A DNA stretch of 64,000 nucleotides from Candidatus Omnitrophota bacterium (GTDB taxonomy: Bacteria; Omnitrophota; Gorgyraeia; Gygaellales; Profunditerraquicolaceae). The DNA lies in assembly GCA_043812955.1 (NCBI GenBank), contig JBDRLN010000064.1, positions 326 through 64,325 of the forward strand. Reading direction: 5' to 3'. The notes beneath the pieces are model-generated. The model saw only the letters and a list, made by a program, of their open reading frames with translations. It made no database searches and had not been told where the DNA came from. Position numbers and translations under genes: made by a program. Shown piece after piece: positions 41,259 through 61,405 of the stretch. Numbering within the stretch: the first letter of the stretch is position 1; the number at the start of each line of letters is the position of its first letter.

Positions 41259-41447
41259 ATGTCCAAAACTCAAGAAATCATGACCACCAAAGAGGTAGCT
41301 GACTATTTGCATGTGCACCCCTTAACTGTTCATCGCTATGCCCGAGAAGGTAAGATACCGGCATTTAAAATCGGGACAGACTGGCGTTTTCATCGCAAAT
41401 ATCTGGAAAATTGGATTCGGCAAAAGGTGGACTCAAAAAACAAATGA
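41259..41447 (+). CDS. small HTH_17 (excisionase/MerR-like) DNA-binding protein
   Basis: MTTKEVADYLHVHPLTVHRYAREGKIPAFKIGTDWRF. Confidence 0.65.
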   Translation: MSKTQEIMTTKEVADYLHVHPLTVHRYAREGKIPAFKIGTDWRFHRKYLENWIRQKVDSKNK

Positions 41448-47960: not shown

Positions 47961-48336
47961 AAGGATCCTGATAGTTGATGATGAAGCAATGATAACCAAG
48001 AGCCTGAAAAAACTACTCACTAAAGAAGGTTTTGAGCCAGTCATTGTCTCAGGAGGCAACGAGGCATTGGGCCAGGTAAAAACTAATGACTTTGATTTGT
48101 TGATTATAGACATACGTATGCCCCAGATGGATGGGATTGAAACGATCCGGGCGATCAGAGAGTATATGGCGGTAGAAGGCAAAGATCCTATACCGGAAAT
48201 TGTTATCACCGGCTATGCTGATGAAAATAAATATAAATGCGCGGTTGACTTAAAAGTAAACGCCTATATCTATAAACCATTTGATACCAGCGAGTTCCTT
48301 GGCACAATAAGAGAAGTTCTAGAGAAAAACCCTTAG
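47941..48336 (+). CDS. stand-alone response-regulator receiver (CheY-like) protein
   Basis: ILIVDDE ... LLIIDIRMPQMDG receiver motifs; no output domain. Confidence 0.85.
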   Translation: MEAAMAKRILIVDDEAMITKSLKKLLTKEGFEPVIVSGGNEALGQVKTNDFDLLIIDIRMPQMDGIETIRAIREYMAVEGKDPIPEIVITGYADENKYKCAVDLKVNAYIYKPFDTSEFLGTIREVLEKNP

Positions 48337-49566: not shown

Positions 49567-50776
49567 GAATACCAGAATAGTAGTTACCGGCTTAGGAGTG
49601 ATCTCTGCTATCGGGATCGGAAAAAAGCAATTTTGGGATGCCGCACTTGCCGGGACATCCGGGATCAGCGATATCGTTTCTGTAGACACTACTGGTTTTA
49701 AATGCCATCGTGGCGGAGAAGTCAAAGATTTCCATCCTGAAGATTTTATTCCTAAAAGAAAGGTTAAATATCTTGGCCGGGCTTCACAACTGGCTATTGC
49801 CGCTGCTAAATTAGCCATTGAAGATAGCGGAATTGTATTTAAAGAAATACCTAAAACAAAACTAGGTGTCCTCGTGGGCACTACTATGGGCGAAAAACCT
49901 GTGGAAGAATTAATTCAGTCCTGGGTAAAAGGCGGATTAAAAGATTTAGACCGGCGCAGGATCCTTCAGGCCTCAGCCAATAATATATCGGCCAATGTAG
50001 CTTTGTATTTTAAAGCCAAAGCTCAGAATTATCTTTTTCCAACAGCCTGCGCAGCCGGAAACTACGCTATTGGATATGGATTTGATTTGATTAAAAGCGG
50101 CAGCTTGGATTTTGTTTTAGCCGGAGGGGCAGAACCTTTTTCTTATACCGCTTATATGGGTTTTCAACGGCTTTACGCCATGGCAACTGATAAATGCCAA
50201 CCCTTTGATAAAAACCGCAAAGGAATGATGTTAGGCGAAGGTTCAGGAATGCTTCTTTTAGAAAAACTGAAGTCAGCCCTGGAAAGAGGGGCGAATATCT
50301 ACGCCGAGATCTTAGGATACAGCCTATCCTGCGATGCCCATCATCCTACAGCTCCTGAAGTTGGCGGGATTTCTATGGTTATGGAAAAAGCCCTAAAGGA
50401 AACTAATATTTCTTATAAAGACGTTGATTATATCTGTTCTCACGGCACCGGCACACCGATGAATGATAAGGTTGAATCCCAGGCAATTAAGAATGTATTT
50501 AAAGAACGCTATAAAGATATACCGGTAAATTCCCTAAAATCAATGCTCGGACATAGCATGGGCGCTGCCTCAGCGATTGAGGCTTTATCCTGTTGCTTGT
50601 CGGTAAAAGAGGACCTGATCCCGCCGACTATAAATTACGAAACCCCTGACCCGGATTGCGATATAGATTGTGTCCCGAATGTCAAAAGAGAAAAAATTGT
50701 GAATATCGCCTTTAATAACGGTTTTGCTTTTGGCGGGAATAATTCCTGTTTAGTGATTAAAAAATTCATTAAATAA
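49559..50776 (+). CDS. beta-ketoacyl-ACP synthase (KAS II/FabF-like, KSalpha partner) with intact Cys-His-His
   Basis: PTACAAGNYAIG (Cys), CSHGTGTPMND (His), GHSMGAAS (His); overlaps the upstream KS by 8 nt. Confidence 0.85.
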   Translation: MNKNTRIVVTGLGVISAIGIGKKQFWDAALAGTSGISDIVSVDTTGFKCHRGGEVKDFHPEDFIPKRKVKYLGRASQLAIAAAKLAIEDSGIVFKEIPKTKLGVLVGTTMGEKPVEELIQSWVKGGLKDLDRRRILQASANNISANVALYFKAKAQNYLFPTACAAGNYAIGYGFDLIKSGSLDFVLAGGAEPFSYTAYMGFQRLYAMATDKCQPFDKNRKGMMLGEGSGMLLLEKLKSALERGANIYAEILGYSLSCDAHHPTAPEVGGISMVMEKALKETNISYKDVDYICSHGTGTPMNDKVESQAIKNVFKERYKDIPVNSLKSMLGHSMGAASAIEALSCCLSVKEDLIPPTINYETPDPDCDIDCVPNVKREKIVNIAFNNGFAFGGNNSCLVIKKFIK

Positions 50777-50921
50777 GTGAGGGCATAAGTTATGGAGCTG
50801 GACATAATAAACAAGGCGTCCGCCACAAAGTCGCCACAGGAATTGGCGACCCGCCAAGCTATGTGGAGGGATCGGCGGATCCGCCAATATTTATGGCGGA
50901 ACATAACTTATATATCCATAC

Positions 50922-51038: not shown

Positions 51039-51058
51039 TCATTAAAGGAGAGTATAAA

Positions 51059-51310
51059 ATGGCAAAAGACAACTTTACAGAAATAAAAAAAGATGTCAAA
51101 AATAAGGTTTCGGAGATCATTGAGGTTGGGGAAGAGAAGTTAAAAGATGAAACCAAATTCGTGGAAGACCTGGGAGTTGACAGCATGATGGCGCTGGAGA
51201 TCGTCGCCAGCATAGAGAAAAAATACAAGATCAGCATTCCCGAAGCGGACATACCCAAGATCCGCTGCCTTAATGATATCTACACAGTGCTTGAAAAAAC
51301 ATTGAAATGA
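51059..51310 (+). CDS. acyl carrier protein (discrete, cluster-associated)
   Basis: LGVDSMMALEIV phosphopantetheine-attachment motif (DSM variant); RBS AAAGGAGAG; 83 aa. Confidence 0.8.
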   Translation: MAKDNFTEIKKDVKNKVSEIIEVGEEKLKDETKFVEDLGVDSMMALEIVASIEKKYKISIPEADIPKIRCLNDIYTVLEKTLK

Positions 51311-51344: not shown

Positions 51345-51791
51345 GTGAGTAACATATGGGATATAAATAAAATCCAGGAGATCCTGCCCCAAAGATATCC
51401 TTTTTTATTCATTGATAGCGTAGTAGAGATAAATGAAGAGGAAGGAAAGGTATCCTGCCTGAAAAACGTAAGTATTAATGATTACTTCTTTAGGGGGCAT
51501 TTTCCCGGAAACCCGGTTATGCCGGGAGTTATCATTATTGAGGCAATGGCCCAAGCCAGCATTATTCTTTACGCGGCTTTAAAACCGGAAATCGCCGTCA
51601 AACACCCGGTTTATTACCTGGGTAACGTGGATATCAAATTCCTCAAACCCGTATTGCCCGGCAACCAGCTTATCCTGCAAATTTCCAAAGAAAAAATAAT
51701 GGATAAGGCAGGCATTGTCAGCGCTGAGGCAAAAGTAAATAATGCAGTTGTAGCCAAAGGCAGGATTACCTTCGGGGTTCAGCCTAAATAA
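51345..51791 (+). CDS. 3-hydroxyacyl-ACP dehydratase (FabZ/FabA hotdog family)
   Basis: YPFLFIDSV ... FFRGHFPGNPVMPGVIIIEAMAQ. Confidence 0.85.
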   Translation: MSNIWDINKIQEILPQRYPFLFIDSVVEINEEEGKVSCLKNVSINDYFFRGHFPGNPVMPGVIIIEAMAQASIILYAALKPEIAVKHPVYYLGNVDIKFLKPVLPGNQLILQISKEKIMDKAGIVSAEAKVNNAVVAKGRITFGVQPK

Positions 51792-51869
51792 AATTATTGA
51801 CAAACGCGTAAATCCCATTTATAATCGTTCTTAGAAAGTATACATTAATGTTAACTAACAAGGAACGAT

Positions 51870-52550: not shown

Positions 52551-53124
52551 GGTATATGAAGCCCTGCTTAATTTAGATAAACGCTACCTTAGCGCCAGGG
52601 AAATAGCGCGCATACTCAATATCAGCTCCGGAAATAGAAAAGTATCGATAAGCAGGCTTACAAAGAGGAAGATACTGCGTAGGCTCAGGCGCAATCTTTA
52701 CGAAGTATCGCTAAAACCAACGGATATCCTTGAAGCCGCTAACAGCGTTTACCAACCGAGTTATCTTTCATTTACCTATTGCCTGGGCAAACTCGGGTTA
52801 TTGAACCAGATCGCTTATGAAATAGAATTTGCCACCCCAAAGAAAACAAAGAGGATTGAAATCCGCGGCCGCGGCGTGATCTTCCGCAAAATTAAAAAAG
52901 AATTATTTTTTGGTTACGAGCTTAACGACAATATTTTTACAGCGAAGCCTGAGAAGGCGCTTTTGGATACATTATATTTAAAAACAAAAGGCCTGGCGGT
53001 TATCAATGAGAAAGAACTTAATCTTAAAGATATTAATAAACAGAAAATAATCACGATGAGCAGGAAATTTCCGCTCAAAGTCCAGCAAGAAACAAAAAAA
53101 CTTATTTCAAAATATGTCAAATAA
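52543..53124 (+). CDS. AbiEi-like antitoxin/transcriptional regulator (winged-helix N-domain)
   Basis: N-domain LSAREIARILNIS...RLTKRKILRRLRRNLYEV resembles the AbiEi antitoxin domain; 8-nt overlap with the upstream NTase gene. Confidence 0.5.
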   Translation: MLKVYEALLNLDKRYLSAREIARILNISSGNRKVSISRLTKRKILRRLRRNLYEVSLKPTDILEAANSVYQPSYLSFTYCLGKLGLLNQIAYEIEFATPKKTKRIEIRGRGVIFRKIKKELFFGYELNDNIFTAKPEKALLDTLYLKTKGLAVINEKELNLKDINKQKIITMSRKFPLKVQQETKKLISKYVK

Positions 53125-54214
53125 ACCCGCGATATTCCTGACCGGAGCTACGGGATTAGTCGGATCATACCTATTAAAACTATTCCTGGAAAAAAACCAT
53201 AAAGTTTTTGCCTTAGGCAGGGGTAAAAACGAGAAAACTACCATAGAAAGGGTAATGGAGGTTTTGAGATTCTGGGATAAAAATATACCAAACAGCAAAA
53301 TTAATAATCTCCAGATTATAGAAGGCGACGTAGCTGAAAATAATCTAGGGCTGGATAAAAACAGCAGAAAAATGCTGGCTCTGGAGACAGAAGAAATCTT
53401 CCATTCCGCAGCTATCACTGATCTGCACCGGCCGATAAAAGAAATCAACAAGGTCAACGTAGGTGGCACCAGAAACATCATGATTTTCGCTGAAAAACTG
53501 AATAAAGAACGCCTGGTAAAAGTAAATCACATCAGCACCGCTTATATTTACGGCAATTATAGGGGCGTATTCAAGGAAGATTCCCTAGACGTCAAACAGA
53601 AATTTAATACCAATTATGAAAGTTCCAAGTTCGAAGCCGAAAAACTGATCAGTGAATTCCGCAAGAAAGGACTTTGGATAGATATTTTTCGGCCGTCAAT
53701 GGTTACCGGAGACACCAAAACCGGAAAGACCTTCCAATTCCGCCATATCTACCAATTCATTAACCTCTGCTGCTTAGAAATATTTGACACCCTGCCGCTG
53801 AAAAACGGTAGGGTAAGCTTGGTTCCTATAGATGTTTTCTCCGAAGCCGCGTATGTTATAACCAGGAAGAACCGGGCCAAATGCGCGAATTATCATCCTT
53901 TTCCGGCTAAACTGGTCAGCGTGGAGAAAATCGTTGATTTAGGCCATCAGATCATTGGCTTTAAGAAGCCAAAATTGGTCCTGCCCGAAGAATTCCGGAT
54001 GGATACCCTGACTCCTTCCCAGAGATTAATTCTACGGGGAACTATTCTGGCAATAAACTTCCAGACTAAGCTTAATTCTAACTATACTAAGCAAATCTTA
54101 AAAAAATATCATTTTAATATGCCTGAAATCACCAATAAATTGCTGGCTAAGAATATTGAATATTTCAAGGATAATATCCGAATCGGAGGCGTCTACCATG
54201 ACCGGAAGATTTGA
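53114..54214 (+). CDS. thioester-reductase (TR) domain protein / fatty acyl reductase (NAD_binding_4, SDR-type)
   Basis: IFLTGATGLVGSYLL Rossmann motif; FHSAAITD...NVGGTRNIM...VNHISTAYIYG matches TR-domain blocks. Confidence 0.7.
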   Translation: MSNKPAIFLTGATGLVGSYLLKLFLEKNHKVFALGRGKNEKTTIERVMEVLRFWDKNIPNSKINNLQIIEGDVAENNLGLDKNSRKMLALETEEIFHSAAITDLHRPIKEINKVNVGGTRNIMIFAEKLNKERLVKVNHISTAYIYGNYRGVFKEDSLDVKQKFNTNYESSKFEAEKLISEFRKKGLWIDIFRPSMVTGDTKTGKTFQFRHIYQFINLCCLEIFDTLPLKNGRVSLVPIDVFSEAAYVITRKNRAKCANYHPFPAKLVSVEKIVDLGHQIIGFKKPKLVLPEEFRMDTLTPSQRLILRGTILAINFQTKLNSNYTKQILKKYHFNMPEITNKLLAKNIEYFKDNIRIGGVYHDRKI

Positions 54215-55472
54215 TTACATAATCGTGGGCGCCGGCCTCTGCGGACTTACTTTAGCCAAAGGACTTAGCCAGAAAAACAAAAAAGTCCTGGTCTTGGAAC
54301 AGGGTGGCTATATTAAGAAATTTGGCAATTTATTATACGCAGCTTCAATTTACGATAAATTCACTCTATCTAAAAGTAGACAGGGATTTATAATTCTGCG
54401 CTCATTTGGAGTAGGCGGAACAAGCATAGTCAGCTGCGGCAATGCCGTGGAATTTCCTGAGGAAGAAATAAATAAGATAGGTATAGATTTCCGCAGCGAA
54501 TTGGATTCAGCAAAAAAAGAATGCTGCCAAACCACCAAACACCCTATTGGAAAAGCTTCAATGAAGATAATGAAAACTGCTAATCAATTAGGATACGATA
54601 TGCAACCAATGCCCAAACTCGGTTTAGAAAAATGTGTATCTTGTGGCAATTGCATTTTAGGGTGCGGTCATCTGGCAAAATGGACTGCAGCAGAATACCT
54701 CAAAGATATTAATAAACATGATGTTTGTATAATTACCGGTTTTAAAGTCAAAAAGGTATTGAGCTCCGCTGGTAAAGCAATAGGAATAGAAGGAAGCGGT
54801 GGTTTATTCTCAAGTCAAAAATATTTTTCCGATAAAATAATCCTTTCTGCCGGAGGTATCGGTACTCCGATCATATTGCAAAAATCAGGAGTAGAAGAAG
54901 CTGGAAAAAGTCTTTTTGTGGATTTTTTCACCAATATATACGGGATCAATAAAGAATTTAACCAGGCTAAAGAAGTAAGTATGTCGGTGGTCTGCGCAAA
55001 ATTTCACAAGAAAGACGGCTTTATACTTTCACCTTTTATTGACAGTTCAATCGGGCTTTTAGCCTGCGTTGAGATTAAACACGCCGGTTACGCTCTAAAG
55101 CTAAATAGCCTGATGGGATTAATGAATAAAATTAACGATGATAATGTTGGCCGGGTTTATCCCAACGGCGCTGTTGACAAAGCACTCACTCAAAATGACT
55201 GGAAAAAATTAAGAAAAGGCAATGAAATAGCTACAGAAATCCTGATTAAAAGCGGGGTGAATCCTAAGAGTATATTTATTACCTTGCCCAGAGGAGCGCA
55301 TCCCGGAGGAACAGCTGCTATTGGTAAAGTTGTAAATACCAGCTTAGAGACTAAAATAAAAAATCTTTACGTTTGTGATTGCAGTGTATTACCGGAAGCT
55401 CCCGGTTTTCCGCCAATCTTGACCCTGATCGCCATTTCCAAATGGTTTGCTAAGAATGTTTTGTTGAAATAA
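54198..55472 (+). CDS. GMC-family FAD-dependent oxidoreductase-like protein
   Basis: N-terminus DYIIVGAGLCGLTLA (FAD fingerprint); C-terminal GGTAAIGKVVNTSLETKIKNLYVCDCSVLP resembles the GMC C-terminal motif; start at 54198 after RBS GGAGG. Confidence 0.55.
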   Translation: MTGRFDYIIVGAGLCGLTLAKGLSQKNKKVLVLEQGGYIKKFGNLLYAASIYDKFTLSKSRQGFIILRSFGVGGTSIVSCGNAVEFPEEEINKIGIDFRSELDSAKKECCQTTKHPIGKASMKIMKTANQLGYDMQPMPKLGLEKCVSCGNCILGCGHLAKWTAAEYLKDINKHDVCIITGFKVKKVLSSAGKAIGIEGSGGLFSSQKYFSDKIILSAGGIGTPIILQKSGVEEAGKSLFVDFFTNIYGINKEFNQAKEVSMSVVCAKFHKKDGFILSPFIDSSIGLLACVEIKHAGYALKLNSLMGLMNKINDDNVGRVYPNGAVDKALTQNDWKKLRKGNEIATEILIKSGVNPKSIFITLPRGAHPGGTAAIGKVVNTSLETKIKNLYVCDCSVLPEAPGFPPILTLIAISKWFAKNVLLK

Positions 55473-56056
55473 TGAGCATATTAAAATTAATTAAACAAAG
55501 AACAGCGGTTAGAAAGTATAAAAATAAAGCTATTTCTGCTAAAAGAATAGCAAAAATAATAGAGGCTGGAATATGGGGCCCGTCTATTCATGGTATACAA
55601 TCTTGGAAATTCGTAATAGTACATAATAAAAACATAATTAATAAAATTTCGAATATAACGGCTAAAAAATCTAAAAAAATTAATATTCCAACTTTTATTT
55701 CAATTCCGACTATAAAAGCACTCGCCAGTACAGAAATACTCATTTGCATATATAATACCAGAAAATTTAGCTTATTTGCCAGTAGATTAAATAAGTTATA
55801 TAAGAAGAATGCTGAAGTTGCAGAATTATCAGCAATTTCGGCAGCTATTCAGAATATGATTCTTACTGCAGAAGACCTTAAAATTGGGTCGTGTTGGCTA
55901 GATATGCCATTGTTCTGCAAAGAGGATATCAGCCATATAATAAAAGAACCTACAGGAGAATTAGTAGCGCTTTTAACTCTAGGGTATGCTGTCGACACAA
56001 GAAAATATAGAACACCACGTAAAATAACTAAAGAAACAGTTAGGTATCTAAAATAG
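55472..56056 (+). CDS. nitroreductase-family flavoprotein
   Basis: LIKQRTAVRKYKNKAIS N-terminal nitroreductase motif; size ~190 aa. Confidence 0.65.
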   Translation: MSILKLIKQRTAVRKYKNKAISAKRIAKIIEAGIWGPSIHGIQSWKFVIVHNKNIINKISNITAKKSKKINIPTFISIPTIKALASTEILICIYNTRKFSLFASRLNKLYKKNAEVAELSAISAAIQNMILTAEDLKIGSCWLDMPLFCKEDISHIIKEPTGELVALLTLGYAVDTRKYRTPRKITKETVRYLK

Positions 56057-56058
56057 GC

Positions 56059-57513
56059 ATGAATAAGGAGTACGATATAATAATTATTGGGGCTGGAATC
56101 GGCGGACTAACCTGTGGTTGTTATCTGGCGAAGGCTGGCTTAAAGGTTCTAATCGTAGAGCAACATTATAAAGCAGGAGGATATTGCACTTCTTTTGAAA
56201 GGCAGGGGTATAAATTTGATGTTGGAGTACATTATTTCGGAGGAATAAAAAAAGGTATTTTAAGTGTTATCCTTGATGACTTAAATTTAAGAAAAACAAT
56301 AAAGTTTAAACAGTTTAATCCTACCGATAAAATAATTACCCCAAAAGCTACCACATATATTAGGTCTAATCCCAAAGATACTATCCGAGAATTTAAGGAT
56401 AACTTTCCATCGGAAAACATGAACATTGATGCATTCTTTAAATTTATAAAACAAGATAATTTTATTAATATTTACAAAAGAACATCAAAGGTGACTTTTA
56501 ATGATGTCTTGGACGAATTTTTTAAGAACCAGGTTTTAAAAGCTACCTTTAACGTCCTTTTAAGGAATATCGGATTATGCGCCAACGATGCATCGGCCCT
56601 AGCAACAATAATATTCCTGAGAGAATACATACTTGATCCCGGATATTATCCTGAAGGCGGAATACAAAAATTTCCTGAAGCCCTACTCGATAAATTCAGG
56701 GAATATGGCGGAATGGTTATGTTAGCTCAAAAGGTAAATAAAATTATTACCGGGAATAATCAAGTTAGGGGTGTCCGGCTTAAGAACGAAAAAACAATTA
56801 AAGCCAGGTATGTAATTTCAAATGCCGATGTCACTGAAACCTTTGGGGAATTGCTTGATATAAAAACAGAGGAATTAAAAAAAATAAGGAAGTTAGCTAT
56901 TTCACCTTCGGCTTTTATTGTTTACCTTGGCTTAAATGAAGATTTCATAAAGCAGATAAAGGATCCGTGCAATATATGGCCTTTTTCAACTTATAGCCTG
57001 ACCAAATCTCCAATTAATCATAAGAACGACATACTTAAAGGAAAACCATTATTAAGCTTACTTACTTTTCCTCATTCCCATGATTTAACTTATAAAAATC
57101 GGAAAAAACCAACAATGCAATTAATGGGGTTAACTTATTATGAATCAAAAGGATTTTGGGCAAAAAATAGAGACAAACTAACTAATAAATTGATAATAGA
57201 AGCTGAAAAATTATTTCCGTCTTTGAAGAAATATATTGTTATAAAAGAGAGCGCTACACCAATTACCTGTAAAAGATATACTTCAAACAGCTATGGCTCT
57301 GCTTTTGGCTGGGCTTCAACAGTTAAACAAATTAATCCTTTAGCTTCTCCGGCAAAAACCTCTATTAAAGGATTATTTCTCACTGGACATTGGTGTACTG
57401 TGGGAAGCGGACAGGGAGGGATCCCAAAAGTAGCTTTCTCTGGCAGAAGAACAGCTAGTTTAATTTTGAAGGAATGTGCCATAAAGTCGTATTTAAGTGA
57501 CTACCTATTATAA
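56059..57513 (+). CDS. phytoene-desaturase-family (CrtI-like) FAD-dependent oxidoreductase/desaturase
   Basis: YDIIIIGAGIGGLTCGCYLAKAGLKVLIVEQHYKAGGYCTSF dinucleotide-binding motif; amine-oxidase/CrtI-like length. Confidence 0.7.
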   Translation: MNKEYDIIIIGAGIGGLTCGCYLAKAGLKVLIVEQHYKAGGYCTSFERQGYKFDVGVHYFGGIKKGILSVILDDLNLRKTIKFKQFNPTDKIITPKATTYIRSNPKDTIREFKDNFPSENMNIDAFFKFIKQDNFINIYKRTSKVTFNDVLDEFFKNQVLKATFNVLLRNIGLCANDASALATIIFLREYILDPGYYPEGGIQKFPEALLDKFREYGGMVMLAQKVNKIITGNNQVRGVRLKNEKTIKARYVISNADVTETFGELLDIKTEELKKIRKLAISPSAFIVYLGLNEDFIKQIKDPCNIWPFSTYSLTKSPINHKNDILKGKPLLSLLTFPHSHDLTYKNRKKPTMQLMGLTYYESKGFWAKNRDKLTNKLIIEAEKLFPSLKKYIVIKESATPITCKRYTSNSYGSAFGWASTVKQINPLASPAKTSIKGLFLTGHWCTVGSGQGGIPKVAFSGRRTASLILKECAIKSYLSDYLL

Positions 57514-57520
57514 TTAAAAA

Positions 57521-59740
57521 ATGAATATTTATACCAATTCCTCAATTCTCATCTTTTTTTCAAGCATATTACTTCTCATAATTACTTTAATGAAAGGTGG
57601 GGGGAGAAGAATAGCTGGCATATGGTCATTCACAAGCCTAGCAATATCATTTTGGGGATTTGGTGGATATAAATTTTCCACTGCGACTTCGGATAAAGAT
57701 GCATTCTTCTGGTGGCAAATAGCGCATATTGGTGTTATATTTACACCGATTTTATTTTATCATTTTGTCTATGATTTCTTAAAATTAAATAAAAAATATC
57801 AAAAATTATTACTTTATGCCTTATATATAATAGGCTTCTTTTTATTAATACTTAACTTCATACCCTCGCGTAACATATTTCTCGGACAGGTAAGACTTTA
57901 TTTTACACACGATCGGTATTTTATTCATTATTGGCCGGATAATAGAAATATCTTATACTTATTGTTTTATATTTTCTTCTATTGGATTCTACTTATATAT
58001 GCTTTTTTAATTCTCATAAACGCTTACAAAAATTCAAAAGGAATATTGCGTAATCAATTAAAATATTTCATATTAGGTTCTTTAATCGCCTGGGTTGGCC
58101 CTCATGGTGATTACCTACCTGTTTTTGGAATTAACATTTATCCTTATTCAAATTTTTTAATTGGAATTTATCCCTTAATTTTTGTATACGCTATACTTAA
58201 GTATAGGTTAATGGATATTACATTAGCTTTTACTCGCGCTAGCATATTCTTAGTCACATATACTTTAATCTTAGGCATACCATTTGCTGTAGCAACTATT
58301 TTTAAAGATAAACTAATCGCTATATTCGGGGGAAATTGGTGGATTTCTCCTTTAGTATTAATGGGTATTCTAGCTACTGTTGGCCCATTTATTTACATCT
58401 ACCTTAACCGTAAGGCGGAAGAGGCGCTGTTAAGAGAGCAGAAACGCTATCAAAACACCTTAAAGCAGGCTTCAATAGGAATGACCCGGATCCGTAATTT
58501 AAGAAGGCTGCTGGAATTGATCGCCCATATCGTTACCAAAACCGTTAAAATAGCTTACGTAGCAATTTATCTTTATGACCCGGATACCGATGAATATATC
58601 CTGCAAGTCAGCCGGGATAAAGGGAGAATATCTATCCCTAAAGTGCCGGCGGATAACCCTTTAATTAAATGGATAATATTAAAGCGCCAACCCCTAATTT
58701 ACGAAGAAGTTAAACACCAGATGGGAGAAAACAACAAAGAACTATATAAATTACTGGAAGAGAACATGCGGCTTTTAACCGCCTCAGTGATCATTCCCAG
58801 CCTTTTAGAGAAAAAACCAATGGGCTTTATTGTCTTGGGAGATAAGATGTCCGGGCAAATTTATACCCTTGACGATTTAAACGTCTTCCAGGTACTGGCC
58901 AGCCAGGCAGCCCTGGCGATTGAAAACGCTAAATTTATCGAAGAAGCTAAAGAGATGCAGGTTCAAATCGCCCAGGCTGAAAAAATGGCTACTATCGGAA
59001 CTATGGCTGACGGCTTATCGCATCAGATAAATAACCGTTTTTACGCGCTATCATTAATAGCCGGTGATAGTATTGACACTATCAAGCATACCGACATTAC
59101 CAATTGCACTCCGGAGATAAAAGAAATGGTTAACCAGATCAATCACGCCTTAGAACGCATCCAGACTAATGTCGGGCAGGGGAGCGAGGTAGTCAAGGGT
59201 ATCTTAAAATATACCCGCAAAGAAGAAGCGGTATTTGAAGTAATATCCTTAGACCAGGTTATTAACGGCACCCTGGAAATGGTCCAATACAAGGTCAAGC
59301 TATCTGAAATTGATATTATCCGTGATTATCCTATAGACATCCCCAGGTTAAAGGCCAATCTGGTCCAGCTGGAAGAGGTATTTTTTAATTTTGTGGATAA
59401 TGCCTATGATTCCATAGTTGAACGCCGCAATCTGCTAAAAGAACCGGGTTACCGGGGAAAGATTATAATCTCGGCTAAAGCTAATGGGAAAGTATTAGAA
59501 ATCGTAGTCCAGGATAATGGCTTGGGCGTAAAAGAAGAAAACATCAAAAAAGTATTTACCCCGTTTTTTACCACCAAGGTCTCTTCGCGCAAAGGCACCG
59601 GCCTTGGGCTTTACGTAATTAATAAAATCGTCACTGACGGGCATAAAGGTAAAATCAACTTCGCCTCCCAATACAAGGTAGGCACCCGATTTACCCTGGA
59701 ACTGCCGATTAATCAGGATACTCCCGCGTCCACCCCGTAG
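57521..59740 (+). CDS. sensor histidine kinase paralog (7TM-type domain + GAF + HisKA + HATPase)
   Basis: Paralogous to 45753-47960 (e.g. LLREQKRYQNTLKQASIGMTRIRNLRRLLELIAHIV vs LLREQLRYQDILKLAAVDMTRIRNLQKLLDFIAQII); H-box LSHQINN; G-box GTGLGLYV. Confidence 0.85.
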   Translation: MNIYTNSSILIFFSSILLLIITLMKGGGRRIAGIWSFTSLAISFWGFGGYKFSTATSDKDAFFWWQIAHIGVIFTPILFYHFVYDFLKLNKKYQKLLLYALYIIGFFLLILNFIPSRNIFLGQVRLYFTHDRYFIHYWPDNRNILYLLFYIFFYWILLIYAFLILINAYKNSKGILRNQLKYFILGSLIAWVGPHGDYLPVFGINIYPYSNFLIGIYPLIFVYAILKYRLMDITLAFTRASIFLVTYTLILGIPFAVATIFKDKLIAIFGGNWWISPLVLMGILATVGPFIYIYLNRKAEEALLREQKRYQNTLKQASIGMTRIRNLRRLLELIAHIVTKTVKIAYVAIYLYDPDTDEYILQVSRDKGRISIPKVPADNPLIKWIILKRQPLIYEEVKHQMGENNKELYKLLEENMRLLTASVIIPSLLEKKPMGFIVLGDKMSGQIYTLDDLNVFQVLASQAALAIENAKFIEEAKEMQVQIAQAEKMATIGTMADGLSHQINNRFYALSLIAGDSIDTIKHTDITNCTPEIKEMVNQINHALERIQTNVGQGSEVVKGILKYTRKEEAVFEVISLDQVINGTLEMVQYKVKLSEIDIIRDYPIDIPRLKANLVQLEEVFFNFVDNAYDSIVERRNLLKEPGYRGKIIISAKANGKVLEIVVQDNGLGVKEENIKKVFTPFFTTKVSSRKGTGLGLYVINKIVTDGHKGKINFASQYKVGTRFTLELPINQDTPASTP

Positions 59741-59873: not shown

Positions 59874-60242
59874 ATGGCAAAGATACTTATTGTTGACGAC
59901 GAGAATGACGTGCTGGAGTTCGCGGCAAATTTCTTCCGCAAGCGCAAGATTGGAGTGGCTGTGGCTACCAGCGGAGAAGAAGCCTTAAGTAAATTAGAGG
60001 CTGAAGCCCCGGATTTAATATTGCTGGACATTCAAATGGGGGGGATCAATGGGATTGAAACCCTGGAACGCCTGCGCCAGATGAATGGTAACATTAAGGT
60101 CATCATGGTTACCGGCAAGGCCCCTATGGCGGACGGGGCGCTGGAAAAATGCCTGAATTTAGGCGCGCTGGCTTATATCCACAAACCACTTAAGTTGGAT
60201 GAACTTGAAAGGGTAGTCCTTAAAACTTTAGGCGCAAAATGA
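59874..60242 (+). CDS. stand-alone response-regulator receiver protein
   Basis: ILIVDDE ... LILLDIQMGGINGIE. Confidence 0.85.
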   Translation: MAKILIVDDENDVLEFAANFFRKRKIGVAVATSGEEALSKLEAEAPDLILLDIQMGGINGIETLERLRQMNGNIKVIMVTGKAPMADGALEKCLNLGALAYIHKPLKLDELERVVLKTLGAK

Positions 60243-61405
60243 ATATCAATTACAAAAAAGAGCTAGAGCTGGCGGCAAAGAATATGATCATGGTCCACGA
60301 ACCCGACTTACTGATCAAGATGATCGCCCGCACTATTGTCCAGAAAGTCGGAATTAAACACGCCGGCATATTACTTCATAATGAAGAAGAGAAGAGTTAT
60401 ATCTTAAACGTCTCCCACGGAGCCAAAGGCATAAAAATCCCGGCGGGTTTTGCCCGCATAGATTATGACAACGCCCTTATCCGGATATTCCAGGAAAACA
60501 AGAAAAATCCCTTCTTGGAAAACGGATCATTTATTTACCATAATGTAAAAAAAGTAATAGCTAATCACAGCTATCCTCCTGAATTCAAAGAACTCTTGAG
60601 TCAGTCATTATATCAAATGGAAATTTTTGATTCCATAGCCTGCATTCCCAGTTATTTTCGGGATGACCTTTTAGGCGTATTGCTTCTGGGAGCAAAAACT
60701 GATAACCAGAATTTTGAACAGGAAGAATTGGATTTTTTTACCGCCCTGGCTTCGGATGTAGCTATGGCTATTCGCAACGCCCAGCTGTTTAAGGAATTGG
60801 AAGGCGAACTGCAAAAAAAACGCCGTTTGTTTATTAATACTACCGTGGCCTTAGCCGCTGCAGTTGACGCCAAAGACCACTATACCCACGGCCATATTAA
60901 CCGGGTAACCGCTATATGCCTAGAGATAGCCAAAGAGCTGAATCAAAAAAATAAAAAAACTTTTGATGAGAAGTTTATGGAAAACTTACATATCGCCAGC
61001 CTCCTGCACGATATCGGAAAGATCGGCATCCCGGAATATATCCTGAATAAAGAAGGCCCATTAAACGAAGAGGAGAGGCAGAAGATAAATGAACACCCGA
61101 TGATCGGAGTTACCATCCTTCAGCCGATAAGTGAACTAGACGAGGCAATAATGGGAGTAAAACACCACCATGAAAGATATGATGGCCTGGGGTATCCCAG
61201 CGGTTTAAAAAAAGAGGAGATCCCTATGATTGCCGCAATAATATCTGTAGCTGACACCTATGACGCCATGACTTCTAATAGGCCATACCGTAAAGCCCTG
61301 GATAAAGATCAAGCCCTGAATGAGATCAAAAACCAGATCGGAAAACAATTTCATCCGTCAATAGCCGCTGTATTCGTCGAACTTTTTAATGAAGGCAAGA
61401 TATAA
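60239..61405 (+). CDS. GAF-domain HD-GYP phosphodiesterase (c-di-GMP hydrolase family)
   Basis: HDIGKIGIP (HD) and HHERYDGLGYP (GYP) motifs; N-terminal GAF-like region. Confidence 0.8.
   Translation: MNINYKKELELAAKNMIMVHEPDLLIKMIARTIVQKVGIKHAGILLHNEEEKSYILNVSHGAKGIKIPAGFARIDYDNALIRIFQENKKNPFLENGSFIYHNVKKVIANHSYPPEFKELLSQSLYQMEIFDSIACIPSYFRDDLLGVLLLGAKTDNQNFEQEELDFFTALASDVAMAIRNAQLFKELEGELQKKRRLFINTTVALAAAVDAKDHYTHGHINRVTAICLEIAKELNQKNKKTFDEKFMENLHIASLLHDIGKIGIPEYILNKEGPLNEEERQKINEHPMIGVTILQPISELDEAIMGVKHHHERYDGLGYPSGLKKEEIPMIAAIISVADTYDAMTSNRPYRKALDKDQALNEIKNQIGKQFHPSIAAVFVELFNEGKI

What the first reader, a model, noticed from the sequence alone, without database searches (positions are those of the whole stretch)
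53114..57513. Redox tailoring block: TR-domain reductase, GMC oxidoreductase, nitroreductase and CrtI-like desaturase
Four consecutive, closely spaced redox enzymes directly follow the KS/ACP/DH module and the TA pair.
- A stand-alone thioester-reductase-domain protein (GATGLVGS, STAYIYG) would release acyl thioesters as aldehydes or alcohols.
- GMC-type flavoenzymes oxidise long-chain alcohols.
- CrtI-family enzymes desaturate lipid chains.

Together with the two AAR enzymes upstream, the locus has three independent routes to fatty aldehydes/alcohols. That redundancy is unusual and suggests a multi-step or branched pathway.
Basis: inference. Interest (0 to 1): 0.6.

Follow-up and report, generated by a model that had tools for sequence, protein, structure and literature searches.

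The report
Reductive tailoring half of ladderane-like operon
The four redox genes are real and belong to a fatty-chain-building operon conserved across the uncultured phylum Omnitrophota; that operon is a close relative, lacking the radical-SAM enzyme, of the gene cluster thought to make ladderane lipids in anammox bacteria, and here the chain is released by reduction instead.

Summary
Four tightly packed + strand genes encode a stand-alone thioester reductase (TR, 53114-54214), a short GMC flavoprotein (54198-55472), a nitroreductase-fold protein (NTR, 55472-56056) and a CrtI-fold flavoprotein (56059-57513).

They are functionally linked to the KS/ACP/DH genes. The order KS-KS-ACP-DH-TR-(GMC)-(NTR)-CrtI-like-7TM histidine kinase recurs in Omnitrophota relatives down to 45% TR identity. 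The AbiE toxin-antitoxin pair between DH and TR is a local insertion.

- The first KS lacks its Cys-His-His triad, so it is chain-length-factor-like.
- KS, dead KS, ACP and DH have anammox "Cluster I" (ladderane-associated) proteins as their best solved-structure matches.
- The CrtI-like gene is a homolog (33-34%) of that cluster's phytoene-dehydrogenase-like gene. It is therefore core, not an add-on.

TR, GMC and NTR are the Omnitrophota-specific part. The anammox B12 radical-SAM gene is absent.

The GMC has an invariant CX2CX2CX3C motif and folds like Fe-S sugar dehydrogenases, so it is probably an O2-independent dehydrogenase. It is fused directly after TR in two giant PKSs. PilZ fusions and an HD-GYP gene tie the pathway to c-di-GMP.

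The "three redundant aldehyde routes" are overcounted: the SRPBCC-AAR fusion lacks the catalytic Cys. The product is unknown.

The parts
41259..41447 (+). HTH_17 (MerR/excisionase-like) small regulator that opens the cluster
   Evidence: Pfam HTH_17 E=5.9e-17. A homolog sits at the cluster start in L001, L002, L004, L005, L010, L015, L085, L166 and L168.
41479..42072 (+). PlsC-type acyltransferase; best match is acyl-ACP:phospholipid O-acyltransferase
   Evidence: Pfam Acyltransferase E=8e-25. NCBIfam NF006386 96 bits, below cut-off. Conserved in L001 and L168; a cut Acyltransferase gene also precedes the SRPBCC-AAR gene at the start of L165.
42062..43633 (+). SRPBCC lipid-binding domain fused to an AAR-like reductase domain; the catalytic Cys is replaced by Ala
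   Evidence: Pfam and NCBIfam. Best PDB match is S. elongatus AAR 6jzq, E=5e-29. Cys294 aligns with Ala here, Ser in L001 and L165, Cys in L167 and L168.
43644..44741 (+). Second AAR/PigE-N-like reductase that retains the catalytic Cys
   Evidence: NCBIfam AcACP_reductase 101 bits and PigE 134 bits, both below cut-off. Cys conserved.
44722..45756 (+). WbuX-like PP-loop amidotransferase, in a slot whose content varies between relatives
   Evidence: NCBIfam TIGR03573 131 bits, below cut-off. The same slot holds a LuxD-like acyltransferase-methyltransferase in L001 and a PEMT/ICMT methyltransferase in L165.
45753..47960 (+). Histidine kinase with an N-terminal 7TM domain (HK1)
   Evidence: Pfam HisKA_7TM, HisKA and HATPase_c. 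Conserved in L001, L165, L167 and L168.
47941..48336 (+). Receiver-only response regulator
   Evidence: Pfam Response_reg E=7.7e-25.
48340..49566 (+). Catalytically dead ketosynthase (chain-length-factor-like); homolog of anammox amxFabFmut
   Evidence: The triad is Phe/Ser/Glu instead of Cys/His/His, and the triad is dead in all 12 KS1-type sequences collected from related loci (10 non-anammox, 2 anammox). Best PDB match 9s5h_C, 364 bits. 46-47% identity to FabFmut in L169.
49559..50776 (+). Active ketosynthase; homolog of anammox amxFabF2
   Evidence: Cys-His-His intact. Best PDB match 9s5h_B, 478 bits, about 60% identity; next is Iga11 (6kxd), 335 bits. 54% identity to FabF2 in L169.
51059..51310 (+). 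Acyl carrier protein (ORF opens at 51005; likely start is ATG 51059)
   Evidence: Pfam PP-binding E=5e-12. Best PDB matches include 9s5i_E and 7auf_A, an entry named 'Similar to acyl carrier protein'.
51345..51791 (+). FabZ/FabA-fold dehydratase; homolog of amxFabZ
   Evidence: Pfam FabA E=1.7e-29. Best PDB matches are 7qv0_A, 8ayb and 8ayd, which are amxFabZ (identities confirmed in PMC10139942).
51797..53124 (+). Inserted AbiEii/AbiEi toxin-antitoxin cassette with its own promoter; not part of the pathway
   Evidence: Pfam AbiEii E=6.8e-19 and AbiEi_4 E=3.9e-5. A perfect TTGACA-17-TATAAT lies at 51797-51825. The cassette is absent from the same spacer in L001 (82% relative), L165 and L168.
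53114..54214 (+). Stand-alone thioester reductase (NAD_binding_4, extended SDR)
   Evidence: Pfam E=5.6e-49. TIGR01746 149.7 bits, below the 213 cut-off. Best PDB match MxaA 4u7w, E=1.9e-22. TGxxGxxG, Y168 and K172 are invariant in 25 homologs. It always lies next to ACP or the KS genes.
54198..55472 (+). Short (424 aa) GMC-fold flavoprotein with an invariant CX2CX2CX3C motif; probable Fe-S dehydrogenase
   Evidence: Pfam. C146, C149, C152, C156 and H368 are invariant in 38 homologs. AF2 model pLDDT 95; best folds are the fructose dehydrogenase large subunit and BcGDH alpha, TM 0.80-0.83. TR-GMC fusions occur in P0371, P0372 and P0382.
55472..56056 (+). Nitroreductase-fold FMN protein
   Evidence: Pfam Nitroreductase E=9.7e-25. 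Best PDB match 3gfa, E=1.2e-18. Present at this position in 8 of 13 type A loci.
56059..57513 (+). CrtI-fold flavoprotein; homolog of the phytoene-dehydrogenase-like gene of anammox Cluster I
   Evidence: Pfam and NCBIfam. 33-34% identity to the PDH-like gene in L169 and L170: 252-256 bits by blastp, 219 bits by tblastn. AF2 model pLDDT 93; best fold 4rep, TM 0.81.
57521..59740 (+). 7TM-GAF histidine kinase (HK2), the gene that most constantly follows the TR block
   Evidence: Pfam HisKA_7TM, GAF and HATPase_c. A homolog lies downstream of TR in L002, L004, L005, L008, L011-L013, L015, L052, L085, L165-L168 and L171.
59874..60242 (+). Receiver-only response regulator
   Evidence: Pfam E=3.3e-29.
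60239..61405 (+). GAF-HD-GYP protein (c-di-GMP phosphodiesterase family)
   Evidence: Pfam HD_5 E=6.5e-36. Conserved in L007, L012, L165, L166 and L168.
61408..62523 (+). MGDG-synthase-like glycosyltransferase; possible downstream lipid-head-group step (linkage weaker)
   Evidence: Pfam MGDG_synth E=4.7e-26. Conserved at this position only in L165 and L168.
62535..63392 (+). LpxL/HtrB-family lipid acyltransferase (linkage weaker)
   Evidence: Pfam Lip_A_acyltrans E=1.1e-46. Conserved in L165 and L168.

Best explanation
The four genes are the chain-release and redox-tailoring half of one long operon (about 41.26-61.4 kb, possibly to 63.4 kb) that is conserved across Omnitrophota.

**Shown**
- The operon's building half consists of a dedicated ACP, a FabZ-like dehydratase, one active ketosynthase and one dead, chain-length-factor-like ketosynthase.
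- That half, together with the CrtI-like flavoprotein, is homologous gene for gene to anammox "Cluster I", the cluster generally held to underlie ladderane lipid synthesis.
- The anammox B12 radical-SAM gene is missing. A stand-alone thioester reductase, usually with a nitroreductase-fold protein and often with a short Fe-S-type GMC dehydrogenase, sits between the FAS genes and the CrtI-like gene.

**Inferred mechanism**
1. The KS/CLF pair, the DH and a ketoreductase build a special acyl chain on the cluster's own ACP. The ketoreductase is encoded in the cluster in most relatives but is absent from this window. The chain may be short to medium in length and possibly unsaturated.
2. The CrtI-like enzyme, perhaps with the FMN nitroreductase-fold protein, changes the C-C saturation or double-bond pattern of the chain.
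3. The TR uses NAD(P)H to cleave the acyl-ACP thioester reductively, giving an aldehyde or alcohol.
4. The Fe-S GMC dehydrogenase then acts on that product (alcohol/aldehyde interconversion) and passes electrons to a partner rather than to O2.
5. The PlsC-type acyltransferase provides a parallel ester branch from the same acyl-ACP.

The likely end product is a specialised envelope lipid building block, such as a fatty alcohol or aldehyde for ether-type or glyco-lipids. Its synthesis is controlled by the flanking 7TM histidine kinases and by c-di-GMP.
For: **Synteny**
- The order KS(dead)-KS-ACP-DH-TR-GMC-NTR-CrtI-like-HK7TM, or KS-KR-ACP-DH-KS-TR-..., recurs in L001, L002, L005 and L165-L168 at 45-82% TR identity.
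- Genes overlap or nearly abut.
- The TA pair is absent from relatives.

**Homology to anammox Cluster I**
- Best PDB matches: KS2 to 9s5h_B (478 bits), KS1 to 9s5h_C (364 bits), DH to amxFabZ 7qv0/8ayb, ACP to 9s5i_E and 7auf.
- The 9s5h_B sequence is 87-95% identical to Brocadia, Jettenia and Kuenenia proteins.
- Direct comparison with anammox loci L169 and L170: KS2 54-56%, KS1 45-47%, DH 45-48%, ACP 43%, CrtI-like 33-34% (219-256 bits).
- The dead triad, with Glu at the third position, and tunnel residue F135 are shared with amxFabFmut (preprint 10.64898/2026.05.19.726425).
- tblastn finds no B12-rSAM in the window or in type A loci.

**TR**
- Motifs and invariant residues.
- Best PDB matches are MxaA and PKS TR domains.
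- ACP immediately precedes TR in L004 and L013; in the type B loci L010 and L015 a fatty-acyl ligase gene lies between ACP and TR, and in L011 the ACP is the C-terminal part of a PilZ fusion.

**TR-GMC coupling**
- Two giant type I PKSs and one fragment end in ...ACP-TR-GMC with the same Cys motif.

**GMC as an Fe-S dehydrogenase**
- Four invariant Cys residues.
- Fold is closest to the Fe-S fructose and glucose dehydrogenases (PMC6719666).

**Regulation**
- A 7TM HK lies directly downstream in more than 14 loci. HD-GYP genes are present. PilZ is fused to ACP (L011), to GMC and to SRPBCC-AAR (L171).
Against: - No enzyme of this Omnitrophota family, and no step of anammox Cluster I beyond KS/CLF decarboxylation and FabZ dehydration, has been shown biochemically. 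The product is unknown.
- No protein reaches an NCBIfam equivalog cut-off.
- This window has no ketoreductase and no enoyl reductase anywhere in its 64 kb, so the reduction state of the chain cannot be inferred.
- GMC is absent from about half of the related loci and NTR from about a third, so neither can be essential to the core chemistry.
- One relative (L013) has KS/CLF-ACP-TR-HK with no CrtI-like gene. In another (L006) TR and the CrtI-like gene are separated by unrelated genes.
- The second catalytic His/Asn of classical GMC enzymes is not evident.
- The Fe-S cluster is inferred from sequence and fold only.
- The glycosyltransferase and LpxL-like genes are conserved only in the closer relatives.
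Confidence: 0.55

Rival explanations
1. The locus is a lipid-signal production and sensing module. The ACP-TR line makes a fatty aldehyde or alcohol that acts as a membrane-soluble signal. The adjacent 7TM histidine kinases sense it, and the output goes through receiver proteins and an HD-GYP c-di-GMP phosphodiesterase. From my own knowledge, this would be analogous to DSF/RpfF-RpfC-RpfG or CAI-1/CqsA-CqsS.
For: - The most constant partner of TR across all cluster variants is a 7TM HK directly downstream. This holds in type A loci, type B loci (FadL-ACP-FAAL-TR-rSAM-HK) and type C (FadL-PilZ-SRPBCC-AAR-GMC-PilZ-HK).
- HD-GYP genes and PilZ fusions are present.
- The anammox KS/CLF and FabZ homologs prefer C6-C8 chains, which would give small diffusible products.
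Against: - A PlsC-type acyl-ACP:lysophospholipid acyltransferase is conserved at the cluster start in L001 and L168 (a cut copy in L165), and a lipid glycosyltransferase plus an LpxL-like acyltransferase lie at its end in L165 and L168. These point to bulk lipid.
- Kinases next to an operon more often regulate it than sense its product.
- The ligand of HisKA_7TM domains is unknown.
- No conserved ligand-binding Lys or other signature was found in the 7TM region.
Confidence: 0.2
2. The locus is a highly reducing type II polyketide (polyene) pathway. KS/CLF, KR and DH, without an enoyl reductase, make a conjugated polyenoyl-ACP as in ishigamide or aryl-polyene synthesis. TR releases a polyenal or polyenol pigment or antioxidant, which the flavoenzymes isomerise or trim.
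For: - There is a KS/CLF heterodimer signature. Iga11 is the second-best PDB match of KS2: 335 bits against 307 for the best FabF.
- Precomputed Pfam hits to ApeP-like and ApeI-like dehydratase families are recorded for the DH orthologs in relatives; the window DH itself gives only a weak ApeI-like hit.
- No ER gene lies in any cluster.
- The CrtI family acts on polyenes.
- A glycosyltransferase and an acyltransferase lie downstream, as in aryl-polyene loci (the latter from my own knowledge).
Against: - The closest characterised relatives are the anammox KS/CLF and FabZ, which are described as fatty-acid-type enzymes preferring C6-C8 saturated probes.
- KR is missing from this window.
- No aryl starter or CoA-ligase genes occur in type A loci.
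- Most Omnitrophota live in dark anoxic habitats, where pigments are less expected (my own knowledge).
Confidence: 0.12
3. The locus makes hydrocarbons. Aldehydes produced by TR or AAR-like enzymes are converted to alkanes or alkenes, with the GMC protein acting like the GMC-family fatty acid photodecarboxylase or as a decarbonylase. This would recall the polyunsaturated hydrocarbons found in Desulfotalea psychrophila, which has related FASII plus phytoene-dehydrogenase-like clusters.
For: - AAR-like genes are present.
- Fatty acid photodecarboxylases appear among the weak PDB sequence matches of the GMC.
- Rattray 2009 links similar clusters to polyunsaturated hydrocarbons.
Against: - No aldehyde-deformylating oxygenase (ferritin-like) gene is in the cluster.
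- The fold of the GMC is closest to Fe-S sugar dehydrogenases, not to the photodecarboxylase.
- GMC is absent from half of the related loci.
- The SRPBCC-AAR fusion lacks the catalytic Cys here.
Confidence: 0.05
4. The four genes are unrelated housekeeping redox enzymes, for example a sugar epimerase/dehydratase, choline dehydrogenase, nitroreductase or carotenoid desaturase, that lie next to the FAS-like genes by chance.
For: - The TR also scores on Epimerase and GDP_Man_Dehyd profiles, which is usual for extended SDRs.
- No protein reaches a curated equivalog cut-off.
Against: - NAD_binding_4 is by far the best TR match: 167 bits against 72 for Epimerase.
- Synteny is conserved across deep divergence, with overlapping genes.
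- TR-GMC fusions occur in PKSs.
- No carotenoid genes lie anywhere in the window.
Confidence: 0.02

Closest known systems
Anammox 'Cluster I' (KustE3603-3608: amxACP, amxFabZ, amxFabF2, amxFabFmut, phytoene-dehydrogenase homolog, B12 radical-SAM), the presumed ladderane lipid cluster
   Same: Five of its six genes have homologs here in one operon.
- ACP: 43% identity.
- FabZ-like DH: 45-48%.
- Active KS: 54-56%.
- Dead KS with Glu at the third triad position and the same tunnel Phe: 45-47%.
- CrtI-fold flavoprotein: 33-34%.

For KS, dead KS and DH the anammox proteins are clearly the best-matching solved structures; for the ACP the margin over ordinary ACPs is small.
   Different: - There is no B12 radical-SAM gene in the window or in type A relatives.
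- Gene order differs: dead KS before active KS, and ACP/DH after them.
- TR, GMC and NTR are inserted before the CrtI-like gene.
- A KR is often encoded in the cluster.
- The locus carries regulators (7TM HKs, HD-GYP), a PlsC-like acyltransferase and AAR-like genes.
- The host is Omnitrophota, not Brocadiales, and no ladderanes are known from it.
ElbD-dependent ether-lipid system of Myxococcus xanthus (a multidomain protein with fatty-acyl reductase-like, acyl-CoA synthetase, ACP and AGPAT-like acyltransferase domains)
   Same: - The same catalytic parts are present as separate genes: ACP, NAD_binding_4 reductase and PlsC-type acyltransferase.
- Type B relatives add a fatty-acyl ligase.
- A Black Sea survey reported ElbD BLAST hits in 93 of 267 Omnitrophota MAGs (PMC11868695).
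   Different: - The parts are not fused.
- There is no ligase in this window; the chain is made de novo by KS/CLF.
- The HAD-like ElbB and the ElbC/ElbE partners were not looked for (PMC9131029).
- ElbD chemistry itself is unresolved.
Terminal thioester reductase domains of PKS/NRPS (for example MxaA of myxalamid synthase, PDB 4u7w)
   Same: - Best solved-structure match (E=1.9e-22).
- NAD(P)-binding TGxxGxxG motif and Tyr-Lys catalytic residues.
- Acts on carrier-protein thioesters.
   Different: - It is a stand-alone protein of 366 aa, not a C-terminal domain.
- It scores below the TIGR01746 cut-off (149.7 against 213 bits).
- Whether it stops at the aldehyde or goes on to the alcohol cannot be told.
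Fe-S-containing GMC-type dehydrogenases (Burkholderia cepacia FAD-glucose dehydrogenase alpha subunit; Gluconobacter fructose dehydrogenase large subunit)
   Same: - Closest folds to the AF2 model (TM 0.80-0.83).
- A cysteine cluster lies in the N-terminal half at a comparable relative position. In BcGDH it binds a 3Fe-4S cluster that carries electrons from FAD to a partner instead of to O2 (PMC6719666).
   Different: - About 110 residues shorter.
- The motif is CX2CX2CX3C (four Cys, ferredoxin-like) rather than CCX4CX3C.
- No cytochrome or hitchhiker subunit genes are nearby.
- The context is lipid/polyketide, not sugar.
- Sequence identity is only 13-15%.
Highly reducing type II PKS (ishigamide Iga11/Iga12) and aryl-polyene synthases
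   Same: - KS plus dead-KS (CLF) heterodimer logic with a discrete ACP, KR and DH and no ER.
- Iga11 is the second-best structure match of KS2.
- Precomputed Pfam hits to ApeP-like and ApeI-like families are recorded for the DH orthologs in relatives.
   Different: - Identity to Iga11 is clearly lower than to amxFabF2.
- There is no aryl or amide starter or termination machinery.
- Release is reductive.
Cyanobacterial acyl-ACP reductase (AAR)
   Same: The two upstream genes share the AAR fold and NAD(P)-binding region (E about 1e-29 to 6jzq).
   Different: - Scores are far below the TIGR04058 cut-off (141 and 101 bits against 450).
- The SRPBCC fusion has Ala at the catalytic Cys294 position.
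- No ADO partner is present.

Membership tests
Thioester reductase (NAD_binding_4 / TIGR01746) | N-terminal TGxxGxxG NAD(P)-binding motif | tested here: met
   TGATGLVGS at residues 10-18. T10, G11, G14 and G17 are invariant in 25 homologs.
Thioester reductase (NAD_binding_4 / TIGR01746) | SDR catalytic Ser/Thr-Tyr-Lys residues (YxxxK) | tested here: met
   S141, T142, Y168 and K172 are invariant or nearly so.
Thioester reductase (NAD_binding_4 / TIGR01746) | Score above the curated family thresholds | tested here: inconclusive
   Pfam PF07993 gives 167 bits against a 20.1 cut-off, which is met. NCBIfam TIGR01746 gives 149.7 bits against 213.35, which is not met.
Thioester reductase (NAD_binding_4 / TIGR01746) | Works on a carrier-protein-bound thioester | tested here: inconclusive
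   Genetic evidence only. ACP lies next to TR in all variants, and TR follows ACP inside PKS fusions.
GMC oxidoreductase | N-terminal FAD-binding GxGxxG and a GMC_oxred_N match | tested here: met
   65 bits against a cut-off of 23. G11 and G13 are invariant.
GMC oxidoreductase | C-terminal catalytic His plus a His/Asn pair | tested here: inconclusive
   The His in AHPGG (H368) is invariant. No conserved His or Asn was identified at the second position, which reads ...DxSVLPxAPGxPP....
GMC oxidoreductase | Full-length architecture of about 500-600 aa with a complete substrate domain | tested here: not met
   424 aa. GMC_oxred_C is matched only over profile positions 84-138. The whole subfamily is 405-450 aa.
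Fe-S GMC-type dehydrogenases (BcGDH/FDH type) | Cysteine cluster binding an Fe-S centre near FAD | tested here: inconclusive
   The CX2CX2CX3C motif is invariant in 38 homologs and the closest folds are BcGDH and FDH. The metal centre itself cannot be tested in silico.
Nitroreductase superfamily | Pfam PF00881 match over the full domain | tested here: met
   88 bits against a cut-off of 23.5, covering positions 1-167 of 167. No NCBIfam equivalog is reached.
CrtI / phytoene desaturase family | FAD-binding Rossmann fold plus Amino_oxidase fold | tested here: met
   Pfam 95.8 bits. AF2 model (pLDDT 93) superposes on 4rep (TM 0.81) and 4dgk.
CrtI / phytoene desaturase family | Score above the TIGR02734 crtI_fam cut-off | tested here: not met
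   138.3 bits against 238.1. The anammox PDH-like protein behaves alike, at 158 bits.
CrtI / phytoene desaturase family | Carotenoid pathway context (phytoene/squalene synthase, cyclases) | tested here: not met
   No such gene was found among the ORFs of at least 100 aa that are not nested in larger genes, nor in related loci.
Anammox Cluster I (ladderane-associated) | Dedicated ACP, FabZ-like DH, active FabF2 and dead FabFmut encoded together | tested here: met
   Best PDB matches and 43-56% identity to L169 and L170. Dead triad confirmed.
Anammox Cluster I (ladderane-associated) | Phytoene-dehydrogenase-like flavoprotein in the same cluster | tested here: met
   33-34% identity, 219-256 bits, same strand and operon.
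Anammox Cluster I (ladderane-associated) | Cobalamin-dependent radical-SAM enzyme in the cluster | tested here: not met
   tblastn with the L169 rSAM gives no hit in the window or in L001-L005 and L165-L168.
Anammox Cluster I (ladderane-associated) | Host produces ladderane lipids | not testable with these tools
   Omnitrophota are uncultured and no lipid data were found.
ElbD-type ether lipid system | Fatty-acyl ligase, ACP, reductase and AGPAT-like domains fused in one protein | tested here: not met
   Here they are separate genes. There is no AMP-binding gene in this cluster, although one is present in type B loci L010, L011 and L015.
Cyanobacterial acyl-ACP reductase | Catalytic Cys (Cys294 of S. 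elongatus AAR) | tested here: not met
   Not met for the SRPBCC-AAR fusion, which has Ala. The second AAR-like gene at 43644-44741 keeps the Cys.

The most novel reading that the evidence does not exclude
The Omnitrophota operon is the non-cyclising sister of the anammox ladderane cluster. Both would use the same KS/CLF-ACP-FabZ-PDH machinery to make the same kind of unusual, probably unsaturated, ACP-bound intermediate. Anammox bacteria would then hand it to a B12 radical-SAM enzyme for cyclobutane formation, whereas Omnitrophota release it reductively with TR.

If so, three consequences follow.
- The cluster is not exclusive to ladderane producers.
- The radical-SAM enzyme is pinpointed as the ladderane-specific step.
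- The simpler Omnitrophota operon offers an expressible route to identify the long-sought ladderane precursor.
Probability: 0.25. Interest if true: 0.85.

Novelty: new variant of a known kind. Interest (0 to 1): 0.62.

Why it matters
**Ladderane biosynthesis.** This is a long-standing open problem. The literature treats Cluster I as conserved in, and exclusive to, ladderane producers (PMC10139942), and the KS/CLF pair as the first chain-length factor found in fatty-acid synthesis (2026 preprint). A widespread Omnitrophota operon shares five of the six Cluster I genes but swaps the radical-SAM enzyme for a thioester reductase.
- It gives a natural comparison that separates what the shared genes do from what is ladderane-specific.
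- It offers a smaller system for heterologous expression.

**Other points of interest**
- The data define a previously undescribed pairing of thioester reductases with a short Fe-S-type GMC dehydrogenase, also seen fused at the end of giant PKSs.
- They show an unusually direct wiring of a lipid pathway to c-di-GMP, with PilZ fused to ACP, to GMC and to an AAR-like reductase.
- They give a first concrete hypothesis about specialised lipids in an uncultured, globally distributed phylum.

Tried and rejected
1. **Elb recollection.** I recalled that the Myxococcus elb operon contains a CrtI-like ElbB. PMC9131029 shows this is wrong: ElbB is HAD-like. Only the ElbD domain-set analogy remains.
2. 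**Retinal-like chromophore.** The idea was that a polyene aldehyde binds the 7TM kinases through a Schiff base. No conserved Lys lies in the 7TM region of 20 kinases; Lys-rich columns reach at most 65%. Dropped.
3. **Metagenome scan.** Only L085 and L086 were useful.
4. **Type B radical-SAM genes.** B12-rSAM genes in type B loci (L010-L012, L015) looked like the missing Cluster I enzyme (30-33% identity). By NCBIfam they are generic B12-rSAMs, with HpnJ- and BchE-like models scoring best. Orthology is not claimed.
5. **Myxococcota TR-like hits.** L073 and L077 hold stand-alone ORFs of about 370-400 aa at the TR hit, not ElbD.
6. **Brocadia TR-like gene.** The L053 gene is a stand-alone reductase next to an SCP2 protein and is not linked to Cluster I.
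7. **Rfam and tRNA scans.** They show only five tRNAs and nothing in the cluster.
8. **Literature on the gene combination.** A search for TR, nitroreductase and phytoene desaturase together found nothing relevant.
9. **antiSMASH "ladderane" calls.** Such calls in Omnitrophota MAGs exist (Cariaco Basin) but were not analysed there, and it was not checked whether they are this cluster.
10. **Octanoyl-ACP/lipoate supply.** This role is suggested by lpd-lipB-lipoyl-carrier genes directly upstream in four relatives. It was left as an untested idea because those genes are absent here and lie outside the HTH_17 boundary.

Full report
**1. What is there**

The window is a long run of + strand genes from a Candidatus Omnitrophota MAG. 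The CrtI-like protein is 100% identical to an NCBI Omnitrophota protein on a 71-kb contig, and nearly all named best hits of the TR and the CrtI-like protein are Omnitrophota.

The four genes of the finding are present as described.
- A 366-aa NAD_binding_4 thioester reductase at 53114-54214, with E=5.6e-49. Both quoted motifs and the YxxxK residues are present.
- A short GMC flavoprotein in ORF 54156-55472. The likely start is ATG 54198, behind a GGAGG.
- A nitroreductase-fold protein at 55472-56056.
- A CrtI-fold flavoprotein at 56059-57513.

The genes overlap or are at most 7 nt apart, up to and including the next gene, a 7TM-GAF histidine kinase. None reaches an NCBIfam equivalog cut-off.

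**2. The block belongs to a larger conserved operon**

I mapped the surroundings with Pfam and NCBIfam. In order, the genes are:
- HTH_17 regulator (41259)
- PlsC-type acyltransferase
- SRPBCC-AAR fusion
- second AAR-like gene
- WbuX-like amidotransferase
- 7TM histidine kinase
- receiver
- KS
- KS
- ACP
- FabZ-like DH
- AbiEii/AbiEi
- TR
- GMC
- NTR
- CrtI-like
- 7TM-GAF kinase
- receiver
- GAF-HD-GYP
- MGDG-synthase-like glycosyltransferase
- LpxL-like acyltransferase

I fetched loci around TR homologs from other assemblies and scored them with the window's proteins. The same order recurs at 45-82% TR identity. The region between TR and the kinase varies as follows.
- TR-GMC-NTR-CrtI-like-HK: window, L002/L003, L005, L165, L166.
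- TR-NTR-CrtI-like-HK: L167, L085.
- ACP-TR-[another AbiE pair]-NTR-CrtI-like-HK: L004.
- TR-CrtI-like-HK: L168, L007.
- A shuffled version: a Planctomycetales MAG (L052).

Exceptions are L013, which has no CrtI-like gene, and L006, where the cluster is dispersed. At least nine further TR/CrtI-like pairs in the two homolog lists share an identical longest-contig length. This is a crude sign of co-location.

The redox genes travel with the KS/ACP genes.

The AbiE cassette is a local insertion. It carries the only perfect sigma-70-type promoter in 20 kb and sits exactly in the DH-TR spacer. It is missing from the 82% relative L001 and from the others.

**3. The biosynthetic half is an anammox Cluster I homolog**

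The first KS (48340-49566) has Phe/Ser/Glu where Cys/His/His should be. The second KS is intact. All ten non-anammox KS1-type orthologs collected (and the two anammox ones) are likewise dead, always with Glu at the third position.

Solved-structure searches gave strikingly close hits.
- KS2 to 9s5h_B: 478 bits, about 60% identity.
- KS1 to 9s5h_C: 364 bits.
- DH to 7qv0_A, 8ayb and 8ayd.
- ACP to 9s5i_E and 7auf.

PMC10139942 identifies 7QV0, 8AYB and 8AYD as amxFabZ of Scalindua and Kuenenia. The 9s5h_B sequence is 87-95% identical to Brocadia, Jettenia and Kuenenia proteins. A 2026 preprint describes exactly such an amxFabF2/amxFabFmut KS/CLF-like heterodimer and its ACP complex. The PDB code itself is not printed in the held text, so that link is inferred.

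I fetched two anammox Cluster I loci, L169 and L170. Their order is ACP-FabZ-FabF2-FabFmut-PDH-like-B12 rSAM. Direct comparison gives KS2 54-56%, KS1 45-47%, DH 45-48% and ACP 43%.

Importantly, the CrtI-like protein is 33-34% identical to the anammox phytoene-dehydrogenase-like protein: 252-256 bits by blastp and 219 bits by tblastn. Against the best solved CrtI it scores only about 80 bits. The tunnel residue Phe135 of amxFabFmut is conserved, and Val139 is Val or Thr.

The anammox B12 radical-SAM gene has no counterpart in the window or in any type A locus.

So the CrtI-like gene is a core member of an ancestral five-gene module. The Omnitrophota-specific genes are TR, NTR and GMC, inserted between the FAS genes and the CrtI-like gene.

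The literature calls Cluster I exclusive to ladderane producers. Rattray et al. 2009 had noted that FASII clusters with SAM and phytoene-dehydrogenase-like genes are "rare but not unique", citing Desulfotalea and Geobacter, and proposed an anaerobic polyunsaturation route. antiSMASH "ladderane" calls in Omnitrophota MAGs have been reported without analysis.

**4. The individual redox enzymes**

*TR.* Its best structure matches are MxaA and PKS/NRPS reductase domains. The NAD(P) motif and the Tyr/Lys residues are invariant. An ACP gene lies immediately upstream in L004 and L013, and close upstream (separated by a fatty-acyl ligase, or fused to PilZ) in the type B loci.

*GMC.* A search of 1.8 billion representatives shows a distinct subfamily of 405-450 aa, with 174 representatives at E<1e-30.
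- All close members carry an invariant CX2CX2CX3C motif.
- An AF2 model (pLDDT 95) is closest to the large subunit of Gluconobacter fructose dehydrogenase and to the Burkholderia FAD-glucose dehydrogenase alpha subunit, at TM 0.80-0.83.
- The Burkholderia enzyme is a GMC-fold enzyme that carries a 3Fe-4S cluster and passes electrons to a partner instead of to O2 (PMC6719666); that the Gluconobacter enzyme does the same rests on my own knowledge.
- I therefore read this protein as an O2-independent dehydrogenase, not an oxidase. This is an inference.

Two giant type I PKSs (4689 and 5953 aa) and one fragment end in ...KR-ACP-TR-GMC with the same motif. This Rosetta-stone fusion argues that the GMC acts directly after TR.

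*NTR.* It is a generic nitroreductase-fold FMN protein. Weak best hits include the FbiB C-terminal domain, BluB and albonoursin synthase. From my own knowledge, members of this fold reduce or introduce C=C bonds. That fits a role alongside the CrtI-like enzyme but proves nothing.

*CrtI-like.* The AF2 model (pLDDT 93) superposes best on a CrtD-type desaturase and on CrtI. There are no carotenoid genes in the window.

**5. The "redundant" AAR enzymes**

Both upstream genes have the AAR fold. In the conserved SRPBCC-AAR fusion, however, the catalytic Cys294 position is Ala here, Ser in L001 and L165, and Cys in L167 and L168. The extra AAR-like gene, present in the window and in L165, keeps the Cys.

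This looks like replacement rather than redundancy. "Three independent routes" is an overcount.

**6. Regulation**

A HisKA_7TM kinase immediately follows the TR block in every variant. This includes two other architectures.
- Type B, in L010, L011, L012 and L015: (HTH_17-FadL)-ACP-fatty-acyl ligase-TR-B12 rSAM-HK.
- Type C, in L171: FadL-[PilZ-SRPBCC-AAR]-[GMC-PilZ]-HK.

PilZ is also fused to the ACP in L011. An HD-GYP gene follows in six loci. The pathway is thus wired to two-component and c-di-GMP signalling.

This leaves two readings.
- Regulated envelope-lipid synthesis. I prefer this because of the PlsC-type and lipid-transferase genes.
- A lipid-signal production and sensing module.

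A retinal-like chromophore idea was tested and dropped, because no conserved Lys lies in the 7TM region.

**7. Limits**

- The product is unknown.
- No KR or ER is encoded in this window.
- GMC and NTR are dispensable in some lineages.
- MAG taxonomic labels may be imperfect, for example the "Nitrospirales" and "Planctomycetia" bins.
- Orthology between the Omnitrophota and anammox CrtI-like proteins rests on pairwise scores and synteny, not on a full phylogeny.
- The Fe-S centre is inferred.

**8. Verdict**

- **Observation:** confirmed.
- **Interpretation:** partly right, namely reductive release plus redox tailoring linked to the KS/ACP module. It missed the key identity of the system.
- **Novelty:** a new variant of a known but biochemically unsolved kind, the Cluster-I-type KS/CLF fatty-chain pathway.
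- **Value:** real comparative leverage on the ladderane problem.

Noticed in passing
window 51797-53124; L004 11103-12346: AbiE-type toxin-antitoxin pairs have inserted independently into the same operon at two different spacers. In the window the pair sits between DH and TR; in L004 it sits between TR and NTR. The two pairs are only 32-34% identical. The window copy brings a perfect sigma-70-type promoter that would also drive the downstream TR block.
   Followed up: partly
window 50777-51058 and 16277-16318: The KS2-ACP spacer is 282 nt here against 78 nt in the 82% relative L001. It holds a probably spurious 61-aa ORF. It also holds a 43-nt stretch repeated at 84% identity in the intergenic region about 170 nt downstream of tRNA-Met, which may be a small repeat element.
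   Followed up: partly
L002 2193-4511; L004 7671-9172; L005; L168 134-1019; L169 15685-17118: Dihydrolipoyl dehydrogenase, LipB-type octanoyltransferase and a lipoyl-carrier protein lie directly upstream of the cluster's HTH_17 gene in four Omnitrophota relatives. An Lpd-like gene follows the radical-SAM gene in one anammox locus. Because the anammox KS/CLF and FabZ prefer C6-C8 chains, a link to octanoyl-ACP/lipoate supply is conceivable but untested.
   Followed up: no
L011 1402-2064; L171 6034-9632 (P0362): PilZ (c-di-GMP receptor) domains are fused to three different pathway proteins in relatives: the ACP, the GMC dehydrogenase and the SRPBCC-AAR reductase. The window itself has three stand-alone PilZ genes (24351-24704, 26001-26357, 30740-31057) and a c-di-AMP cyclase gene (20909-21658).
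   Followed up: partly
P0371 (MEW5803368.1, 4689 aa) and P0372 (MGA1867996.1, 5953 aa): Two giant type I polyketide synthases from unclassified MAGs end in a TR-GMC didomain carrying the Fe-S-like Cys motif. I am not aware of any description of this chain-termination architecture.
   Followed up: partly
window 55472-57513 versus 48340-50776: The NTR and CrtI-like genes are much more AT-rich (GC 0.31 and 0.34) than the KS genes (0.42). They are also less conserved relative to L165 (45-52% against 75-79% identity). This suggests faster evolution or a different history within one operon.
   Followed up: no
window 4221-7457 (- strand): A 1078-aa ORF, the only large gene on the minus strand in the window, has no Pfam match.
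   Followed up: no
window 22395-22844, 28763-29515, 40337-41071: Holo-ACP synthase (AcpS), a CoaBC-type flavoprotein domain and type III pantothenate kinase all lie in the same 64-kb window as the ACP-dependent cluster. coaX is immediately upstream of the cluster.
   Followed up: no
L053 9989-11598 (Candidatus Brocadia MAG): An anammox genome encodes a stand-alone NAD_binding_4 reductase followed by an SCP2 lipid-transfer protein, unlinked to Cluster I. It is a candidate for making ladderane alcohols.
   Followed up: no
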